This document shows, in pieces, positions 43,005 through 50,888 of a DNA stretch of 64,000 bases (positions are counted from its first letter, which is position 1; the number at the start of each line of letters is the position of its first letter). The DNA is from Nitrospirota bacterium (lineage in GTDB: Bacteria; Nitrospirota; UBA9217), in NCBI GenBank assembly GCA_963751455.1, contig CAVVUN010000003.1, positions 96,001 through 160,000 of the forward strand, in the 5' to 3' direction. The notes under the pieces were generated by a model. It did no database searches. It was not told the origin of the DNA and saw only the letters and a list, made by a program, of their open reading frames with translations. Position numbers and translations under genes: made by a program.

Positions 43005-43079
43005 GGGCGATTAGCTCAGCGGGAGAGCACTGCCTTCACACGGCAGGGGTCGCTGGTTCAAACCCAGCATCGCCCACCA
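43005..43079 (+). tRNA. tRNA-Val (anticodon CAC), CCA encoded; also the left att of island 1
   Basis: GGGCGAT/ATCGCCC acceptor stem; D arm GCTC..GAGC; anticodon stem CTGCC/GGCAG with loop TTCACAC; T arm GCTGG-TTCAAAC-CCAGC. Confidence 0.98.
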
Positions 43080-43086
43080 TGAATTC

Positions 43087-43119
43087 AAAGGGCTACGGTC
43101 TTCACCGTAGCCCTTTTTT
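43087..43119 (+). terminator. Rho-independent terminator after the tRNA
   Basis: aaagggctacggt-cttc-accgtagccc-tttttt. Confidence 0.9.
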
Positions 43120-43181
43120 GTTGACTGTGCCCCTTTTGTGCCCCCCAGCATCTTTAGCCATTTCAATCACCTTCCTTTCCG

Positions 43182-43222
43182 ATGTTGACAAATACCCAAA
43201 AAATGGTTATATTTGTCAACAT
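43182..43222 (+). promoter_or_regulatory. Sigma70 promoter overlapped by a perfect 13-bp inverted repeat (putative operator)
   Basis: TTGACA (43185-43190)-N17-TATATT (43208-43213); ATGTTGACAAATA-N15-TATTTGTCAACAT. Confidence 0.75.
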
Positions 43223-43297
43223 AAGATAAATGATTGCTCTCCTTGCTAGGAAGTACAGGAGTACTCGGAGTAAATCAGGATTACGGGAGGTAATGGA

Positions 43298-44368
43298 GTG
43301 AAAAAGCAGGAGCCTAAGGAAATATTTGCTCAGCGCCTGGCCCAAGCCCGGAAGATGCGAGGTATGTCGCTCCGAGCTCTGGCGGACGCGACCGGAGGGA
43401 AAATATCCTACAATGCGCTGCATCGCTATGAATTGGGGGAAATGATGCCCGGAGACGAGGTTCTGATGGCAGTGGCTGACGCCCTGGATCAATCCCTGGA
43501 TTTCTTCTTCCGCCCGGCCACCACCAAGCTTCAGGAGGTCAATTTTCGCAAAACAACCAAGGTCGGCGCGAAGACCGTGGAAGCGATCCGGGAACAGTCG
43601 GCCGATTTCTTTGAGCGGTACCTGGAAATCGAAAACATTCTCGGTCTGCCGTCCACCTTCCGGGACCCGCTCGGCAGTTTGCGGCTGCACAAGCCGGTGG
43701 ATGCTGAAACAGCCGCGGAGAAGGTCCGGGCTACATGGAACCTTGGACTCGATCCGCTGCCGAATGTTATCGAAACCCTCGAAGCGAACGGTATCAAGTT
43801 CTTTGAGGTGGAAGCACCCGAGCATTTCGACGGTTTTTCCGGATGGGCAGACGGCCACCCCGTTGTGGTCCTCGCAAAATGGTTGAACAAAGACCCGGCG
43901 CGCAAGCGCTTTACCGCGCTTCACGAAGCCGCGCACCTTCTTATTCACTCGCACGTAGATTCGCGAGGAAAAGAGATTGAGCTGTACTGCAATCGATTTG
44001 CAGGCGCTATGCTGATCCCTCAAAAGATGTTCAAGACCGACTGGGGCGGTTATCGTACCCGAGTCAGCTCAGCGGAACTTGTTGATCTGAAGCGTCGCTA
44101 CGGTATGTCCATAGCAGCTATTATGCACCGTGCAATCGATCTGGGCTTGCTAGATGGTTCTACCTATCGGCGATTCTGCATTATGCGAAGAAAAGAAAAA
44201 TGGGATGAAAAAGAACCTGGAGACTATCCGGGTATCGAAAAGTCCTCTCGTTTCGATCAACTGGTATTTCGCGCGGCCGCACAAGAAATAATCACAGCCA
44301 GTAAGGGAGCTGCGCTGCTGAATCAATCGCTTATCGACTTCCGAGAGAAGTTGAGCGAGGTTGCATGA
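43298..44368 (+). CDS. XRE HTH fused to ImmA/IrrE-family Zn metallopeptidase
   Basis: RLAQARKMRGMSLRALA..LHRYELG HTH; RFTALHEAAH (HExxH); CNRFAGAMLIP; GTG start. Confidence 0.93.
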   Translation: MKKQEPKEIFAQRLAQARKMRGMSLRALADATGGKISYNALHRYELGEMMPGDEVLMAVADALDQSLDFFFRPATTKLQEVNFRKTTKVGAKTVEAIREQSADFFERYLEIENILGLPSTFRDPLGSLRLHKPVDAETAAEKVRATWNLGLDPLPNVIETLEANGIKFFEVEAPEHFDGFSGWADGHPVVVLAKWLNKDPARKRFTALHEAAHLLIHSHVDSRGKEIELYCNRFAGAMLIPQKMFKTDWGGYRTRVSSAELVDLKRRYGMSIAAIMHRAIDLGLLDGSTYRRFCIMRRKEKWDEKEPGDYPGIEKSSRFDQLVFRAAAQEIITASKGAALLNQSLIDFREKLSEVA

Positions 44369-44874
44369 AGGTCATTGTCCACGACGCATCGGTGCTTATT
44401 GACCTTATAGCAGCCGATCTGCTCGAACAGTGGTTGGGCCTCGGAAACGAGACGATTGTTACATCGCTAGTTTGGCGGGAGATAAACCGGAAAAGCGAGA
44501 AAGAAAAATTGCAGCCTTATGTCGAAAGAGGACTGCTGAAAATAGCTCATCTGCCGTCAGAGGATTTCTCGGAAGTTGTAGCGATGAAGATGGATCTATC
44601 GCTCGATCTTTCCCTTGAAGACGTCTCCGCCCTTTATGTGGCTGTTTCCCGTAAAGGCATCCTGCTCACAGGTGAAAAGACTTTGCGGCAAAATGCCGAA
44701 AGGCGCGGCGTCGAAGTGCATGGTCTCCTATGGGTCTTCGATGTTTTGATTGAACGCGGGAAAATGCTGGCGAGCATCGCCGCTGATCGCCTCGAGCATA
44801 TAACAGCAAAGCGGACCAGCCGGCTGCCTAAAGAGGAATGCAGCCACCGAATCAAAAAATGGAGAAGCCAGTAA
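44365..44874 (+). CDS. PIN-domain protein (putative toxin)
   Basis: VHDASVLIDL; WREI; LSLEDVSAL; LLTGEKTLR; ATGA overlap with the HTH-peptidase gene. Confidence 0.85.
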   Translation: MKVIVHDASVLIDLIAADLLEQWLGLGNETIVTSLVWREINRKSEKEKLQPYVERGLLKIAHLPSEDFSEVVAMKMDLSLDLSLEDVSALYVAVSRKGILLTGEKTLRQNAERRGVEVHGLLWVFDVLIERGKMLASIAADRLEHITAKRTSRLPKEECSHRIKKWRSQ

Positions 44875-44944
44875 ATAAAAACGGATTTACTGCACAGACT
44901 TATGAGCAAGGTTAATATATCAAAAATTGCTGAAGATGTCTTAT

Positions 44945-46462
44945 CCTTGTAGTTGCATAAACATTTCTTGAAAATATGCAGAAACCTCTGGAAACAGGCT
45001 TCATTATTGGATATAGTGCTCCTGCGATATCATTATTTCACTCAAGCAGGAGGCCACTGAAAGTGAAGTCCAGTAAAGCACAGGTTCTAAGCCGCGTTCA
45101 CAAAATACCGGAACTGAAGTTCGAGGATCAACAGCTCACTTCCTACGCGGGCCTTGCTATCATTCAGGCATTCTTCACGAAGCTGAATCTGAAAGCCCGC
45201 TTGAAAAGCTGCTTTGATCATCTACCGTCGAGCGCCATCTTCGGCAATCACGTCATTACGCTCGTGCTGATCGTGCATCTGATGCTGGGTTATCGGAAAC
45301 TCCGCGACATCGAATACTATCAGGACGACCTTATGGCGCTTCGTCTTCTGGGCCTCCGAAAAATGCCGGACGTTTCCACGATCAGCCGGGCATTGATGAC
45401 GGTCGACGCAAAGGACATTTTGAATCTTCGTCGGTTCTGCCGGGAAATGTCGCTCTCCCGCATACAGGGTTTGAAGCTTCGTCGCGTGACGCTTGATTTC
45501 GACGGCTCTGTGCTCTCGACCTCCCGATGGGCTGAGGGTGCCGCCGTAGGCTTCAACAAAAAGAAAAAAGGGCAGAGAAGCTATTATCCGCTTTTCTGCA
45601 TGATCGCTCAGTTGGGCATGGTCCTTGACGTCCTGCCCCGTTCGGGTAACGTACATGATTCCAACGGCGCCCGGGCGTTCATCCTTGCGTGCATCGAACA
45701 GGTGCGTGCAACCTGTTCGGATATCGTCATCGAAGTGCGCATGGACAGCGCTTTCTTCAGCGATGAAATCGTCGGCGCGCTGGAGCGCGACGGAATTGAG
45801 TTCACCATCTCGGTCCCCTTTGAGCGGTTCTCCGAACTCAAACACATGATCGAAGCCAAAAAACGCTGGAGGCGTTACGATTCCGTTGTTTCCTATTTCG
45901 ACACACCCTGGAAGCCGAAAAGCTGGGACAGCCGGTTCCGCTTTCTTTTTATTCGTCAAAAAGCCAAAAAGCAGTCAAAAGAGCCGGTGCAGCTTGATAT
46001 GTTCACGCCGCACGAATACGGGTTTGACTTCAAGGTGATCGTTACAAACAAAACAACGACGGTGAAGAAAGTCCTGAACTTCCATCAGGGCCGCGGTTCT
46101 CAGGAAAACATCCTTGGAGAGCTAAAGTCCCAGTGCAATATGGATTACGTGGCTGTGAGAAGATTGCACGGAAATCAGCTATACATGATGTCGGCGATCA
46201 TCTCGCACAATCTCCTGAAGGAACTTCACATGGTCGCGCATGAACCCGACCGGGGCACCACCGAAAAACGGGCCGCTCTTTGGGAGTTCACGGAGCCCAA
46301 TACCCTGCGAAGAACACTTATACAGCGTGCCGGCCGCCTGACACAGCCCGGCGGCAAGCTAACTCTGACAATGAACGCCAATCCACGAGTCAAAAAGGGG
46401 TTGTTGCATTATCTCGACCGATTGCAACGGGCCGCATAGCGATTTTTTATGCAACGTTAAGG
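44945..46462 (+). mobile_element. IS1380-family insertion sequence
   Basis: Terminal IRs CCTTGTAGTTGCATAAA and reverse complement CCTTAACGTTGCATAAA (14/17 match); flanks TTAT and TTAA (imperfect target duplication). Confidence 0.85.
45063..46439 (+). CDS. IS1380-family DDE transposase
   Basis: LTSYAGL; TLDFDGS; YYPL; LPRSGNVH; VRMDSAF; HQGRGSQENILGELK; TLRRTLIQRAGRL; GTG start after AGGAGG. Confidence 0.92.
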   Translation: MKSSKAQVLSRVHKIPELKFEDQQLTSYAGLAIIQAFFTKLNLKARLKSCFDHLPSSAIFGNHVITLVLIVHLMLGYRKLRDIEYYQDDLMALRLLGLRKMPDVSTISRALMTVDAKDILNLRRFCREMSLSRIQGLKLRRVTLDFDGSVLSTSRWAEGAAVGFNKKKKGQRSYYPLFCMIAQLGMVLDVLPRSGNVHDSNGARAFILACIEQVRATCSDIVIEVRMDSAFFSDEIVGALERDGIEFTISVPFERFSELKHMIEAKKRWRRYDSVVSYFDTPWKPKSWDSRFRFLFIRQKAKKQSKEPVQLDMFTPHEYGFDFKVIVTNKTTTVKKVLNFHQGRGSQENILGELKSQCNMDYVAVRRLHGNQLYMMSAIISHNLLKELHMVAHEPDRGTTEKRAALWEFTEPNTLRRTLIQRAGRLTQPGGKLTLTMNANPRVKKGLLHYLDRLQRAA

Positions 46463-46575
46463 TTAAGTGAGGTAATTAGGGTACTTAAATAACCTGTTGC
46501 CTCAGGATATCCTCGTTGGTTCATCTTTGCGCGGAGAAAAAGCCTCCTTTCTTTCGCTGCCTGAGTCAAAAAACT

Positions 46576-47331
46576 TTAAATCGGGCATCTTGATAAGCTT
46601 CTCGCAAAATAATAGTTTAGACAAAATGATATTGCAAGTTGATTTACCTTAACTACCTCACTTCGTGTAATGAAAATGTTTTGAGATTTGCCTAATAAAA
46701 TGATATTTGGAGAAATTGGAATAACCGCGACATCAAAATAAATTTCAGGAACTATAAAATCACCCTCGTTTGACTTTACAACTCCCCACTGCACCTTTCC
46801 TATATCACTTCTCCTTTTATCAATGCTCATCTGTATGTTTAATCCAGTCATAAATCGGCTGGGAACGGAAGGAATCTCTCCCCTAGTGAAAATAACGTGA
46901 TTCTTTTCTAGTCGTTCTTCTTCATCTTTTGTAAAGGGTTTCCCCCCGATTATACCCTTGAGTTGAACATCTGGAAGTGGGCTTAAATTCCGCTCATAGC
47001 GAAGAAGCCAAAGTAAATAAAAGTCTGTTGCAACTCTATTATCTGAATCTCCCAAAATCGAGGTGGGGTTATCGATGATTTTAGAAGTTAATGCCTGAAA
47101 GGAGTCCTCAATGCTTTTTTGATATCCTTCTTCGGCGCGTTGGTCCCAACATCTTTTCGCGCAGAATAGCTGGTCATCGGGAGGCAAACTGATGACCTTG
47201 TTTTGCGAAATCAATTTTACTTCTACCATGCCATTACTATCTGCAAATCGCTCGATGCTTTTAGCAGGGAAAATATGTTGTTTGACAGTTAAACCATAGG
47301 GATTCTGTTTTTGCGGCTTTTCGTAGGTCAT
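46576..47331 (-). CDS. DUF4238-like protein, AT-rich
   Basis: N-terminal KQHIFPAKSIERF resembles the DUF4238 HxxP..L..F motif; IPISPNIIL. Confidence 0.6.
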   Translation of the reverse strand: MTYEKPQKQNPYGLTVKQHIFPAKSIERFADSNGMVEVKLISQNKVISLPPDDQLFCAKRCWDQRAEEGYQKSIEDSFQALTSKIIDNPTSILGDSDNRVATDFYLLWLLRYERNLSPLPDVQLKGIIGGKPFTKDEEERLEKNHVIFTRGEIPSVPSRFMTGLNIQMSIDKRRSDIGKVQWGVVKSNEGDFIVPEIYFDVAVIPISPNIILLGKSQNIFITRSEVVKVNQLAISFCLNYYFARSLSRCPI

Positions 47332-47686
47332 GATTCCTTCCTGCTTAAGATATCTTCTTTTGGTTTTTCCTCGGAATGTTCAAAATTCGAATGCTTATAT
47401 TATATCTCTATGATTCAGACTTTATTCTGTTAACTTATTTTCACCAAAACGACCACCGACGAAAAAGGCTCAAGAAGAAAATATCATAGTGCAGCCAACT
47501 AAGCAAAAGCCACAATTGTAGACAAAAATAATCTTGTATTGTGCCCCTTTTTGTGCCCCCCGGAGGGGAAAATCTTAGAATCATCAGATTAGCTCGAAAT
47601 AATAGAAACGCTGGAAACGCTGAAAATCATTAATTTTTGGGAGACCAGCCACCTTCAATGGTTTACGTGATTTTGGTCTTTTAGCG

Positions 47687-47731
47687 TTCACACGGCAAGG
47701 GTCGCTGGTTCAAACCCAGCATCGCCCACCA
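47687..47731 (+). repeat. tRNA-Val 3'-half copy (junction att between islands 1 and 2)
   Basis: TTCACACGGCAAGGGTCGCTGGTTCAAACCCAGCATCGCCCACCA, 44/45 identical to 43035-43079. Confidence 0.95.
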
Positions 47732-47739
47732 TGTAAATT

Positions 47740-47769
47740 AAGGGGTTAGCTGATATAGGCTAACTCCTT
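47740..47769 (+). terminator. Hairpin after the middle att copy
   Basis: aaggggttagc-tgatatag-gctaactcctt; weak U tract. Confidence 0.65.
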
Positions 47770-47913
47770 CTCTGTTTCTTGTGCAGTAATTGTGCAGTTG
47801 GTTGTGGGTGTGTCGTTCGGGGACGGGTCCAAAAGGTTGTTGAGTATGTTTATCGCCTTCCTGCTGTGTTCTGGGGCAAGGTGAGCATAGTGGAGGGTCA
47901 TTTTAATATCCTT
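47746..47913 (-). pseudogene. C-terminal remnant of a tyrosine integrase
   Basis: Hand translation KDIKMTLHYAHLAPEHSRKAINILNNLLD...ELAYIS* matches the box II (GH)xDxxMTxRYAHL pattern with the catalytic Tyr; oriented toward the left att. Confidence 0.8.
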
Positions 47914-47950
47914 GTAGTACGTTATTTTTATTTCTGCATACCATTATTCA

Positions 47951-48044
47951 TCTTTACTGTTTCAACACAGTATAGCTTCAAGTTATGGTTGCACTTCTTT
48001 ACTGTTTCAACACAGTATAGCTTCAAGTTATGGTTGCACTTCTT
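47951..48044. repeat. Perfect 45-bp tandem duplication containing the palindrome TACTGT-N6-ACAGTA
   Basis: tctttactgtttcaacacagtatagcttcaagttatggttgcact at 47951-47995 and 47996-48040, then tctt. Confidence 0.9.
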
Positions 48045-48090
48045 GAAGCCTTATAAAAATTCAGTCTGAATTCGTTAGCGTATACCCCCG

Positions 48091-48119
48091 TTGACATAGA
48101 ATTGAATAAGGTATATATT
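48091..48119 (+). promoter_or_regulatory. Putative sigma70 promoter for island 2 cargo
   Basis: TTGACA-N17-TATATT, about 100 bp upstream of the ClpP-like gene. Confidence 0.7.
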
Positions 48120-48221
48120 CGACCGGAATACTGTGAATGGTTACATAAGATGCTCGCCAGCCATAAACCCGAACTGTAAGCGGCTCAATATCCAAGAAAA
48201 AGCAAAGGAGAAGACAATATC

Positions 48222-48785
48222 ATGCCGCAAGTGCAACAGAAAATTGTGTACATTAATTTTTTCGATGGCATTGAACCGCAAAGAATTTTCCAATTCATTA
48301 ACTTTTTCTCTCAAATTTTCCAGCAACATCGGCCTGAAATAATTCAGATTAATATATCATCTCCAGGGGGCAATGTATCTGTAGGAATGTTCCTTTACAA
48401 TTACCTCAAATCTCTTCCTTGCAAATTGATTATGCATAATATAGGTTCTGTTGATTCTATTTCCACAATAATATTTCTCGCGGGCGAGGAACGATATGCC
48501 AATCCAAATGCATCATTTCTTTTTCATGGCATCGTAACTAACTTCCCTTCTCAAACCTCCTTAACCCTGTACCAGCTTAAAGAACGACTCGGTGGTCTCG
48601 AAGTAGATCAAAACAAAATATCAAATACAATTACTGAACTTACTAAAATAACGAAGCAAGAGCTTGACGAACTATTTTTACAAGGGGAGGTCAAATCCCC
48701 TGAATTTGCGCTTCAAAAGGGATTTATACATGGGATCAAACCAATGGCACTTCCTAAGGATGCTATCATTTTCACTTTTGCTTAA
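48222..48785 (+). CDS. ClpP-like serine protease (not the housekeeping ClpP)
   Basis: INISSPGGNV; GSVDSIS (nucleophile Ser position); IFLAGEERYA; FLFHG (His); ALQKGFIHGI; AAGGAG upstream. Confidence 0.85.
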   Translation: MPQVQQKIVYINFFDGIEPQRIFQFINFFSQIFQQHRPEIIQINISSPGGNVSVGMFLYNYLKSLPCKLIMHNIGSVDSISTIIFLAGEERYANPNASFLFHGIVTNFPSQTSLTLYQLKERLGGLEVDQNKISNTITELTKITKQELDELFLQGEVKSPEFALQKGFIHGIKPMALPKDAIIFTFA

Positions 48786-48998
48786 AATGCCTTCTCTGTA
48801 ACTCTGCGCTATTCTGTTTTGCACACTAGCGGTGCTATTCCGATTATTCATTTGTGCTTTTAAAACACGAACGATAAAGTCAGCCCATGATTTGAGCGCC
48901 CGTTATGCATTGACAGCCCTAATTAAAACGTTTAATCTAATAACATATACTCTTGACCGTCAGCTAGATTTCCAAAAGAACAAAAGGAGTGAGTCATC

Positions 48999-49760
48999 AT
49001 GCCGATCAACGAAGTATTTCAAAGACCTACGGTGAAGCAAGTGATTTTTCAAATCACATATCCGAATTTATTTTATCTTGAAAGCAAAATTGGAGACCTA
49101 CAACTGGCAATCATGGAGAAGTTTCCGGAATCTTCTTTGTTATTTCAGCGACAGGTTCTCCTCGCTAATTTAGGCCCTGGTGCTAAAACAGAGGATCTAG
49201 AAAAAAAACACACAGATGAAGGTACAAAAAAAATATGGCAATTTACTTCGCCTAAAGGTTATACACTTAACGTTACCACTAGTACGCTCGATATTACCTC
49301 TACGCTACATAAAACGTACAACAACGACGCCTCTGAGAACAAATTTCGTGACATAATTACCTTTGTTGTGGATCATTTTTTAAAGATTACAAAAATTCCA
49401 TTAATATTGAGAATTGGTCTTCGCTATATCGATGATTGTCCAGTGCCGAGTAATATTACGGAAGACTTTGTAAGTTATTATCAAACTTCTTTTCCAGTAA
49501 GTCGTTTTAAACTTGAAGATGCAACCGAAATGAATTTTACGACAATCGTAAAAAGAGATAATTGTTCTTTACGTTACGCCGAGTCATTTAAAAAGTCACT
49601 GGAAAATAATTATACGTTTGTTCTTGATTTTGATGGTTTTGCTATTAATATCCAATCTGATCAAACTTTACGCATTACTGACAAATTACATGACTTAATT
49701 TCCGCAGAATTTGAAGCTACTATAAAGGAACCTGTTTACAAATATATGCGAGGTGAATAA
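48999..49760 (+). CDS. TIGR04255-like uncharacterised protein
   Basis: FQRPTVKQVIFQI.Y N-terminus; RIGLRYID; FVLDFD; typical length of about 250 aa; AAGGAG RBS. Confidence 0.7.
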   Translation: MPINEVFQRPTVKQVIFQITYPNLFYLESKIGDLQLAIMEKFPESSLLFQRQVLLANLGPGAKTEDLEKKHTDEGTKKIWQFTSPKGYTLNVTTSTLDITSTLHKTYNNDASENKFRDIITFVVDHFLKITKIPLILRIGLRYIDDCPVPSNITEDFVSYYQTSFPVSRFKLEDATEMNFTTIVKRDNCSLRYAESFKKSLENNYTFVLDFDGFAINIQSDQTLRITDKLHDLISAEFEATIKEPVYKYMRGE

Positions 49761-49763
49761 ACT

Positions 49764-49991
49764 ATGACTTCCCTAACGCCAGCAGTAACTGGTGCTCAAA
49801 CGGAGACGCAAGCGCACAAAGTTACATATCCTTTTGAAAGGTATGAAATTGAAGTTATCGTTTCTGATACTGGCATGTTTCTCGGAATCTCGGGAATCAA
49901 ATTAAAGACAGATTTTTTAACTCACGCGCAAAAACTGTCTACGGCAAGCTTCCATGACGTTGAGCAATATTATCAAGAGGAAAACAAATAA
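49764..49991 (+). CDS. 75-aa hypothetical protein
   Basis: Starts 3 bp after the upstream stop, with GAGG RBS; stop overlaps the next start (TAATG). Confidence 0.7.
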   Translation: MTSLTPAVTGAQTETQAHKVTYPFERYEIEVIVSDTGMFLGISGIKLKTDFLTHAQKLSTASFHDVEQYYQEENK

Positions 49992-50626
49992 TGTTTTATG
50001 AAGTTCCCGAACGTGTAGATGCCGCTCTTCGTTTCGGTGATGTTCTCAAAGGTTTTGCAGTATGTACGCCAAAAATTAACAATCCACCACTCCCTGATGA
50101 TCTTAATTGTCAAATTGAAATAAGCAAGCCACCGTTTTATGTTATTTTGTCGCCATGCTGCTCTATTCGTGATAAAATTCTTTCTCTCGCACCACTTGTT
50201 CCGATCAAGAATAGTTTATTCGGCAATCCATACTTTGCTGAGGATCCTACCCGTATTAATATTAAAATTGAACCTGCTTATAGTCTGCCACAAGCAGCAT
50301 GGGAAAGGATGGATCCACGTGAAAAAGCTGAAAGACTTGGCAAAGGGCTATCATATTCACTGTTGGAATATTTTGTTTATAAGGCGCATGACTTGTTCCC
50401 TCAATATAAAATTCCAAGGTTACAAGGTGATATCCTGACGAGGCATTACATGATCGATTTTCGTGCCGCCTTCAGAGTCGCTTGCGACCGAATTCAATCT
50501 CCTGAGCAGTCACCGTTAGAATGTAAGTGCCTGCAATTAGATAATGAGACGAGAGGCCTATTGCGAGACAAGATATTATTCTATTTTTCACGAATCACAG
50601 CTGAAGAAATTGCTCTTATAGTTTAA
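49991..50626 (+). CDS. 211-aa hypothetical protein with a (Q/F)GD..VILSxxC(D/S)-type motif
   Basis: LRFGDVL..YVILSPCCSI..LAPL..IDFR..R.LLRDKI..YFSR; translationally coupled to the 75-aa gene. Confidence 0.75.
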   Translation: MFYEVPERVDAALRFGDVLKGFAVCTPKINNPPLPDDLNCQIEISKPPFYVILSPCCSIRDKILSLAPLVPIKNSLFGNPYFAEDPTRINIKIEPAYSLPQAAWERMDPREKAERLGKGLSYSLLEYFVYKAHDLFPQYKIPRLQGDILTRHYMIDFRAAFRVACDRIQSPEQSPLECKCLQLDNETRGLLRDKILFYFSRITAEEIALIV

Positions 50627-50799
50627 AGAGTTTTCCCATTGGCATGTTATCGCCTCTGCCGTGTGCAGTTCGCTGTGCAGTATCGGATGGAATCCGGCGG
50701 AAAATACGAAAAACTGCTTTTCCCTGCTCTAAGCCTAACCATAAGAAAAAGCAAAGAATATGGAAGGAACGATAATCTGTCCCTTCCTTTCGAGACGCT

Positions 50800-50844
50800 T
50801 TCACACGGCAGGGGTCGCTGGTTCAAACCCAGCATCGCCCACCA
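50800..50844 (+). repeat. tRNA-Val 3'-half copy (distal att)
   Basis: 45/45 identical to 43035-43079; identity extends through TGAAT. Confidence 0.95.
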
Positions 50845-50853
50845 TGAATCATC

Positions 50854-50888
50854 AAAGAGTCAGCACAATATGTGCTGACTCTTTTTTT
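50854..50888 (+). terminator. Rho-independent terminator, probably the original tRNA terminator
   Basis: aaagagtcagcaca-ata-tgtgctgactc-ttttttt. Confidence 0.9.

What the first reader, a model, noticed from the sequence alone, without database searches (positions are those of the whole stretch)
48091..50626. Candidate undescribed defence/TA system: ClpP-like protease plus coupled TIGR04255-like, 75-aa and 211-aa genes
Seen: the whole cargo of cassette 2 is four co-oriented, AT-rich genes behind a near-consensus promoter. The last three are tightly coupled (3-bp gap, then TAATG overlap). The ClpP-like protein has Ser and His at catalytic positions but no clear canonical Asp (QGEVKSP where ClpP has RDRFMSA) and no partner ATPase nearby. 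Established: TIGR04255 is a sporadically distributed family of unknown function; antitoxins of TA and toxin-antitoxin-chaperone systems are released by Clp proteolysis. Inference: the 211-aa protein (GD..VILS..C..AP) may be a PemK/MazF-like toxin, the 75-aa protein an unstable antitoxin, the TIGR04255-like protein a chaperone or sensor, and the ClpP-like protein a dedicated trigger. The ClpP gene is about 210 bp from the triad and may be a separate module.
Basis: partly seen in the sequence, partly recalled or inferred. Interest (0 to 1): 0.75.

Follow-up and report, generated by a model that had tools for sequence, protein, structure and literature searches.

The report
TIGR04255-led three-gene MazF-fold toxin module
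Three tightly linked genes that travel together through bacteria, archaea and phages end in a protein predicted to fold like the MazF toxin, so they likely form an untested toxin-antitoxin-type anti-virus module, while the protease gene beside them is probably a separate passenger.

Summary
The four genes, gaps and promoter are as described, in an AT-rich islet between copies of a tRNA-Val 3' end. The unit is three genes, not four.

TIGR04255 (T), the 75-aa gene (S) and the 211-aa gene (P) keep their order in 9 of 9 genome loci and 57 of 58 metagenome loci with room. The ClpP-like gene lies in 0 of 90 such loci (69 with flank on one side, 31 on both).

P's model (pLDDT 96.5) best matches MazF, CcdB and Kid (Z 9.3), but MazF's catalytic Arg/Thr seem unconserved. 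T has a TBP-like sheet with no clear match. Distant TIGR04255 genes head the same layout with swapped last genes (MazF-like, HEPN, DUF7689, ART-like). That resembles the weakly validated DS-42.

The ClpP-like protein belongs to a known Asp-less subfamily (PpClpP1, 9UXT), and the host has a canonical clpP. One caveat: its closest relative also adjoins a different MazF-like triad (1 of 26 loci).

Best reading: a TAC-like toxin module, with binding, toxicity and defence all untested. The scan noted TIGR04255 triads before on other DNA.

The parts
48999..49760 (+). T: TIGR04255-family protein, 253 aa; predicted two-lobed TBP-like antiparallel sheet backed by helices; proposed keeper or sensor
   Evidence: NCBIfam E 2e-19, over cut-off; model pLDDT 87.9; tied structural matches Z 7.9-8.3; Y107 and R142 invariant, R138 and D210 nearly so, in 28 diverse members
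49764..49991 (+). S: 75-aa acidic protein (pI 5.2); variable N-terminus holding an invariant Thr9-Gly10, then a conserved core and a C-terminal aromatic/acidic motif; proposed antitoxin
   Evidence: T9 in 61 of 61 and G10 in 60 of 61 aligned relatives; follows T in 74 of 74 metagenome loci with room; no family hit over cut-off
49991..50626 (+). P: 211-aa protein with a predicted MazF/PemK/CcdB fold plus insertions; proposed toxin or effector
   Evidence: model pLDDT 96.5; VIA top 12 rows all MazF, CcdB, Kid or CptN, best Z 9.3, rmsd 3.3, 112 aligned; 366 cluster representatives at E<=0.001
48222..48785 (+). Asp-less, N-terminally short ClpP-like protease of the PpClpP1 (9UXT) subfamily; probably a separate accessory gene
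   Evidence: best PDB hit 9UXT, E 6e-21, against >=5e-7 for canonical ClpPs; S79 and H102 invariant; 0 of 90 close triad loci carry it
48091..48119 (+). sigma-70-like promoter upstream of the clp gene
   Evidence: 11 of 12 consensus; a 79% relative has its own TTGACA-17-TATAAT
48923..48951 (+). weaker promoter-like site upstream of T (possible promoter of the triad alone)
   Evidence: 9 of 12; such matches also arise by chance (19 found against a shuffle mean of 9.4)
47687..47733 (+). left att-like copy of the tRNA-Val 3' half (anticodon loop to CCA), followed by a terminator-like hairpin at 47740-47769
50800..50846 (+). right att-like copy of the tRNA-Val 3' half, followed by a terminator-like hairpin at 50854-50884
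47780..47798 (+). doubled TGTGCAGT repeat near the left end, repeated at 50662-50681 near the right end; inferred integrase arm-type sites
   Evidence: sequence; cassette 1 has an analogous but different repeat at similar distances (43126, 47540)

Best explanation
T, S and P form a conserved, mobile three-gene operon that likely works as a toxin-antitoxin module with a third keeper protein: P is predicted to be a MazF/CcdB-fold toxin, S would neutralise it, and T would hold S stable through S's Thr-Gly N-terminal tail until a phage product or stress displaces it. S would then be degraded, probably by the host's own Clp machinery, and P would arrest the cell (abortive defence). The ClpP-like gene is probably an independent accessory gene in the same tRNA-Val islet. 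Shown: gene order and co-occurrence, the predicted fold of P, exchange of the last gene among TIGR04255 loci, and absence of the clp gene from close loci. Inferred: who binds whom, toxicity, the trigger, proteolysis and phage defence. P's target is open: an RNase with a non-canonical site, or a CcdB-like binder.
For: Co-occurrence: T-S-P in 9 of 9 genome loci from bacteria and archaea found with P, in 1 of 1 viral locus, and S in 74 of 74 and P in 57 of 58 metagenome loci with room, found with T. Fold: MazF and CcdB top both Foldseek (E 0.02 and weaker) and VIA (Z 9.3; the top 12 rows are all of this fold, unrelated rows <=3.0). Modularity: among 26 third genes of 30 distant TIGR04255 loci, clusters are 10 ART/RES-like (label recalled from motifs, no family hit in those scanned), 4 short and 4 long QGD-type, 3 HEPN-like (Pfam HEPN E 2e-4 for one), 3 DUF7689 (E 6e-43 for one) and 2 singletons; one short QGD protein hits the P profile independently (E 8e-6). 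Middle genes have unrelated cores but Ser/Thr-rich first 40 residues (21% against 11.5%, higher in 26 of 28; T shows none, 12 of 23). Context: of 87 nearest neighbours, 46 had a Pfam hit; 12 were restriction-modification, HEPN, HNH or TA genes and 9 integrases, resolvases or transposases (my count, no matched control). With T and S intact, P is cut short or missing in 5 loci, against 2 with T or S shortened beside a P. Literature: eight TIGR04255 proteins are listed as predicted novel defence genes, and DS-42 (hypothetical + hypothetical + MBL hydrolase) was validated (PMC13092281 Tables S4, S6-S8). The TAC logic is established for CmdTAC (PMC11618068).
Against: No experiment or expression data. 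MazF's catalytic Arg and Thr (positions recalled) align to variable P48 and V70 of P, in a weak profile alignment (probability 5%), so MazF-type RNase activity is not implied. T matches no chaperone clearly; its best matches are tied among unrelated folds. Third genes also show some N-terminal Ser/Thr excess (15% against 11%, 18 of 22), and the loci are related, so the tail signal is overstated. TAC antitoxins carry their tail at the C-terminus (CmdA); here the candidate tail is N-terminal. DS-42 protection is weak (-log EOP 1.1 on phage Bas1 with smaller plaques), and the family resembling its first protein is not detectably homologous to TIGR04255 (probability 0.4-0.9%). The lesion counts are small and come from metagenome assemblies. 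Many neighbours are plain housekeeping genes. The closest clp relative examined also adjoins a MazF-like triad.
Confidence: 0.45

Rival explanations
1. Same three-gene toxin module, but T is an enzyme rather than a holder: it would modify S (at the invariant Thr) or P covalently and so switch the toxin off or on, as in kinase- or transferase-controlled TA systems.
For: T aligns over 182 residues with the McsB arginine-kinase domain (Z 8.2, rmsd 4.6) and with other guanidino kinases and a glutamate-cysteine ligase. Charged residues R138, R142 and D210 are conserved across the family. Thr9 of S is invariant in an otherwise variable stretch.
Against: Z 8.2 is tied with TBP (7.9) and spermine synthase (8.3) and lies in the range expected from a common arrangement; identity is 5%. 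Only two residues are invariant across 28 diverse members. No sequence match to any solved structure.
Confidence: 0.17
2. The triad is a selfish addiction or growth-control cassette that stabilises the islets carrying it, with no real anti-phage role; P may be a non-catalytic poison like CcdB.
For: It is inserted at many unrelated sites, often between housekeeping genes or next to integrases. CcdB is tied with MazF as the best fold match (Z 8.6 against 9.3). No MazF catalytic residues are evident.
Against: Exchange of HEPN, ART-like, MazF-like and MBL last genes behind a constant first gene is typical of defence systems. DefensePredictor scores TIGR04255 proteins as defensive, and a same-layout system was validated.
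Confidence: 0.2
3. Four-gene system: the Asp-less ClpP is a dedicated or facultative protease that degrades the middle protein and fires the toxin.
For: Here it lies 213 bp upstream, co-oriented, with no terminator found between. Its 79% relative in G220 lies 208 bp downstream of another three-gene operon ending in a MazF-like gene (HMM E 4e-9). The subfamily's solved member has a wide pore, low but real peptidase activity and needs only Ser and His (PMC12900304), which could suit an unfolded antitoxin.
Against: 0 of 90 close triad loci carry it (53 with >=1 kb upstream, 47 with >=0.9 kb downstream). 7 of 9 triad genomes have no match to the subfamily, and in the other 2 it sits beside DNA ligase away from the triad. 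25 of 26 subfamily loci show no triad. It has its own promoter in both cases, lies on opposite sides of unrelated triads, and in G220 is also followed by a VapBC-like pair, as in a cargo hot spot.
Confidence: 0.12

Closest known systems
Toxin-antitoxin-chaperone (TAC) systems, e.g. CmdTAC (PMC11618068, passages read)
   Same: Three coupled genes: a toxin-fold protein, a small middle protein with a likely unstructured tail, and a constant third protein; effectors are exchangeable; host ClpP is available.
   Different: T is not detectably SecB-like, the order is T-S-P (keeper first), the candidate tail is N-terminal, and the toxin fold is MazF/CcdB rather than ART, HigB or MqsR.
DS-42 (PRO1) of DefensePredictor (PMC13092281, supplement rows read)
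   Same: Three-gene layout: about 240-aa unknown, smaller unknown, effector. A family resembling its first protein (judged by eye) heads triads with MBL, HEPN, ART-like and MazF-like last genes, overlapping the set seen behind TIGR04255.
   Different: The effector is an MBL hydrolase, not a MazF fold; homology of that first-gene family to TIGR04255 was not detected.
MazEF / PemIK / CcdAB type II TA
   Same: P has the predicted toxin fold over residues 11-203, with a small gene directly upstream.
   Different: P is twice as long, has no PF02452 hit, and the catalytic Arg/Thr appear unconserved; S has no MazE, AbrB or RHH hit; a third gene is always present.
GajC of type II Gabija (PMC13069673, passages read)
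   Same: A MazF-like domain split by an insertion, serving as an anti-phage effector outside a classical TA pair.
   Different: Its partner is a UvrD helicase; sequence relation to P was not tested.
PpClpP1 of Pseudomonas plecoglossicida (9UXT; PMC12900304, passages read)
   Same: Short N-terminus, Ser and His kept, no Asp at the third position; best PDB match (E 6e-21).
   Different: The third position is Gly (with Glu next to it) rather than Pro; here the gene lies in a mobile islet, and many relatives lie in phage contigs.

Membership tests
TIGR04255 family (T) | score over the NCBIfam cut-off across the model | tested here: met
   70.2 bits against 30, residues 7-247
PemK/MazF/CcdB fold (P) | SH3-like barrel with C-terminal helix | tested here: met
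   predicted model; Z 9.3, rmsd 3.3, 112 of 115 residues of MazF 4mzm aligned
PemK/MazF family PF02452 (P) | sequence match to the Pfam model | tested here: not met
   0 of 150 family members match PF02452 at E<=0.05
MazF RNases (P) | catalytic Arg and Thr | tested here: inconclusive
   they align to variable P48 and V70, but the profile alignment is weak (probability 5%); residue roles recalled
MazF RNases (P) | toxicity and RNA cleavage, neutralised by the upstream protein | not testable with these tools
   needs expression and RNA assays
TAC systems | third component is a SecB-like chaperone | tested here: inconclusive
   no SecB Pfam or PDB sequence hit; the listed structural matches are tied among other folds, and a family not listed is not excluded
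TAC systems | antitoxin with a C-terminal chaperone-addiction tail or ClpX degron | tested here: inconclusive
   S ends in an acidic conserved motif, not LAA; the low-complexity part is N-terminal
TAC systems | ternary complex and protease-dependent activation | not tested
DS-42 | MBL-fold hydrolase as third gene | tested here: not met
   P has a MazF-type fold and no MBL hit
DS-42 | first gene homologous to DS-42 protein 1 | tested here: inconclusive
   only a look-alike family from genomes could be compared; profile probability 0.4-0.9%
Canonical ClpP | Ser-His-Asp triad and NCBIfam clpP cut-off | tested here: not met
   Asp position is Gly146; 21 bits against 308.6 for TIGR00493
PpClpP1-like Asp-less ClpP | short N-terminus, Ser and His kept, no Asp | tested here: met
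   full-length match to 9UXT; S79 and H102 invariant
Named PADLOC systems | HMM match of any of the four proteins | tested here: not met
   0 hits at E<=0.1 for the four; library dated 2023

The most novel reading that the evidence does not exclude
TIGR04255 proteins are a second, SecB-independent platform for three-part toxin systems. A TBP-like saddle grips or modifies a Ser/Thr-Gly N-terminal tail grafted onto unrelated antitoxins, and so puts exchangeable toxins (MazF-fold, HEPN, ART-like, DUF7689) under one phage-sensing switch across bacteria and archaea. This locus is its MazF-fold member, with a toxin that uses a new cysteine-containing site, and Asp-less ClpPs are at times recruited as local triggers.
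Probability: 0.25. Interest if true: 0.85.

Novelty: new variant of a known kind. Interest (0 to 1): 0.58.

Why it matters
TIGR04255 is a common orphan family (79 of 401 genomes in this phylum sample), with no paper naming it in the main texts searched. A small three-gene module with a recognisable toxin fold makes its role directly testable by simple toxicity, rescue and phage assays. If T controls many unrelated toxins through a tail on the antitoxin, it would be a widespread counterpart to SecB-based TAC sensing. The MazF-fold protein without MazF's catalytic residues may also have a new activity.

Tried and rejected
Four-gene unit: rejected on co-occurrence. Match to named defence systems: none in PADLOC for the four proteins; 33 proteins of distant loci gave only weak partial hits. 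PDB sequence searches with the T and P profiles gave nothing useful. The ESM Atlas gave only unnamed or TIGR04255 clusters. Foldseek for T gave weak AdoMetDC/TBP matches in the PDB and, among viral models, one unnamed hit at TM 0.50 plus TBPs. SecB was not among the 50 listed VIA rows for T, which does not exclude it; a second VIA look could not be run. The complex prediction (T + 2 P + S) could not be run, so there is no verdict on binding. No sequencing run was listed for the cassette, which says nothing on expression or excision. T had no match in plasmids; a distant T matched one Ralstonia phage, not followed up. Homology between TIGR04255 and the first-gene family of the G220 triad was not detected, nor between two middle proteins that looked alike. 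Literature searches found no description of this module. Term searches in PMC13092281 main text and in bioRxiv 2025.09.30.679545 and 2024.01.29.577857 found no MazF, PemK, TIGR or ClpP. The library lacks most subscription papers. The PDF supplement and Table S1 of PMC13092281 could not be read and Table S4 was cut, so a tested TIGR04255 system could have been missed.

Full report
Observation. The four ORFs, the 213-bp and 3-bp gaps, the TAATG overlap and the 11-of-12 promoter are in the sequence. They lie in a 3.1-kb islet of 38.6% GC (genome 51.4%) between two 47-bp copies of the 3' half of tRNA-Val(CAC). A first islet (43082-47686) precedes it. Neither islet encodes an integrase. Each carries its own doubled repeat about 45 bp from the left att copy and about 120 bp from the right one. 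I read these as arm-type sites of two different integrases; this is inference.

The unit is three genes. A P profile found 9 genome loci in bacteria and archaea; all 9 have T-S-P in order. A T profile returned the best 80 of 247 metagenome loci. S follows T in 74 of 74 loci with room, and P in 57 of 58. One viral contig has the triad too, and L020 and L021 look like prophage DNA. The ClpP-like gene is in 0 of these 90 loci; 53 have at least 1 kb upstream and 47 at least 0.9 kb downstream. Of 92 nearest-neighbour ORFs I scanned 87 (five looked spurious and were dropped). Of these, 46 had a Pfam hit: 12 restriction-modification, HEPN, HNH or TA genes, 9 recombinases or transposases, and the rest mostly housekeeping. 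There is no matched control.

P. The family has 366 representatives at 50% clustering and no real Pfam match in 150 members. The model is confident (pLDDT 96.5). Foldseek ranks MazF and CcdB first but only at E 0.02 or weaker. VIA gives Z 9.3 to S. aureus MazF over 112 residues; the top 12 rows are MazF, CcdB, Kid or CptN, and unrelated rows score 3.0 or less. Invariant residues are G16, D17, C57, N90 and K194, with R14, R188, R192 and R201 nearly so. In a weak profile alignment to 26 PemK-family proteins, the positions of MazF's catalytic Arg and Thr (recalled) fall on variable P48 and V70. P therefore has the fold, but RNase activity of the MazF type is not implied.

S and T. S is acidic, with Thr9 in 61 of 61 and Gly10 in 60 of 61 relatives inside a variable N-terminus. 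T passes the TIGR04255 cut-off. Its model (pLDDT 87.9) is a curved sheet backed by helices, with tied matches to spermine synthase (Z 8.3), McsB kinase (8.2) and TBP (7.9). None of these assigns a function.

The wider family. TIGR04255 occurs in 79 of 401 genomes of this phylum sample. In the 30 best loci it is followed by a middle gene and usually a third. I clustered 26 third genes; one duplicate locus and three without a visible third gene were left out. The clusters are 10 ART/RES-like (label recalled), 8 QGD-type, 3 HEPN-like, 3 DUF7689 and 2 singletons. One QGD protein hits the P profile at E 8e-6; the hits of four others to the broader profile are circular, as they were in its alignment. 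Middle proteins differ in core but are Ser/Thr-rich in their first 40 residues (26 of 28). Third genes show a weaker excess (18 of 22) and T none (12 of 23). Related loci inflate these counts. A second first-gene family, found in 12 of 401 genomes, heads triads ending in MazF-like (3), ART-like (3), HEPN-like (2) or MBL-like (3) genes, with one unclear (labels other than MazF-like read from motifs). By eye it resembles protein 1 of DS-42, but profile homology to TIGR04255 was not detected.

The ClpP-like gene. It matches PpClpP1 (9UXT) far better than canonical ClpPs. That protein lacks the Asp, has a wide pore and low activity, needs Ser and His, and does not bind ClpX alone (PMC12900304, passages). 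So the missing Asp is a known subfamily trait. The host has a canonical clpP elsewhere. I examined 26 subfamily loci: 9 from genomes and the best 17 of 49 viral loci. Of these, 25 show no triad and varied neighbours. The exception is the closest one (79%, G220), 208 bp downstream of a different triad ending in a MazF-like gene and followed by a VapBC-like pair, with its own promoter. Of 9 triad genomes, 2 hold a subfamily member, unlinked. A shared cargo hot spot explains this most simply, but facultative coupling is not excluded.

Mechanism. Most likely (0.45): P is a toxin, S its antitoxin, and T keeps S stable through the Thr-Gly tail until a phage product or stress displaces it. This follows the logic shown for CmdTAC, where capsid displaces the antitoxin from the chaperone and host ClpP degrades it (PMC11618068, passages). 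All binding and activity steps are inferred. Rivals: T as a modifying enzyme (0.17), addiction without defence (0.2), and the four-gene protease-triggered system (0.12).

Prior art. No main text searched names TIGR04255. DefensePredictor lists eight TIGR04255 proteins as predicted novel defence genes (Table S4 rows). It also validated the three-gene DS-42, with -log EOP 1.1 on Bas1, marked replicated (Tables S6-S8 rows). A split MazF-like effector is known in type II Gabija (PMC13069673, passages). Other papers in the search calls were seen as listings only. Three earlier notes of this scan describe TIGR04255-type triads on other DNA; one gave the DS-42 lead.

Verdict. A real, undescribed MazF-fold member of a modular three-gene conflict architecture: a new variant of a known kind, interest 0.58. 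The dedicated-protease element that raised the first score is probably not part of it.

Noticed in passing
window 43005-50846: Two integrase-less islets in tandem at tRNA-Val(CAC), each with its own pair of doubled end repeats at matching distances from the att copies (43126/47540 and 47780/50662); they look like remnants or passengers of two different integrases.
   Followed up: partly
window 43298-44874: Cassette 1 carries an HTH + M78 peptidase gene (PADLOC RmrA E 2e-56, NCBIfam spr1629-like) coupled to a 169-aa PIN-like gene (PADLOC PDC-S70 E 2.5e-7): a likely TA or defence pair.
   Followed up: partly
window 44976-47331: IS1380-family transposase (E 3e-67) and an opposite-strand 251-aa gene with a weak DUF4238 hit (E 0.03) in cassette 1.
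   Followed up: no
window 47951-48040: Perfect 45-bp tandem duplication upstream of the clp promoter.
   Followed up: no
L130:4086-7406 (G220:C18): Three-gene operon (214 aa, 112 aa, MazF-like 197 aa), then the 79% Clp relative, then a VapBC-like pair, in an AT-rich patch next to ftsZ.
   Followed up: yes
L143-L159: Asp-less ClpP-like genes stand alone in phage contigs, several next to repressor-like or M78 peptidase genes or among structural genes; possibly an accessory or defence gene in its own right.
   Followed up: partly
L222-L233: A second first-gene family heads triads with MazF-like, ART-like, HEPN-like or MBL-like last genes, overlapping the effector set behind TIGR04255.
   Followed up: partly
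L021:3126-4139: T and S intact in phage-like DNA with P absent; the only close locus with room that lacks P entirely.
   Followed up: partly
L035:3236-3284: A tRNA 3'-end-like repeat similar to the window's att copy lies about 0.9 kb downstream of another triad.
   Followed up: no
H2 (ON170239.1:35529-36266): A TIGR04255-like gene in Ralstonia phage YO139_2.
   Followed up: no
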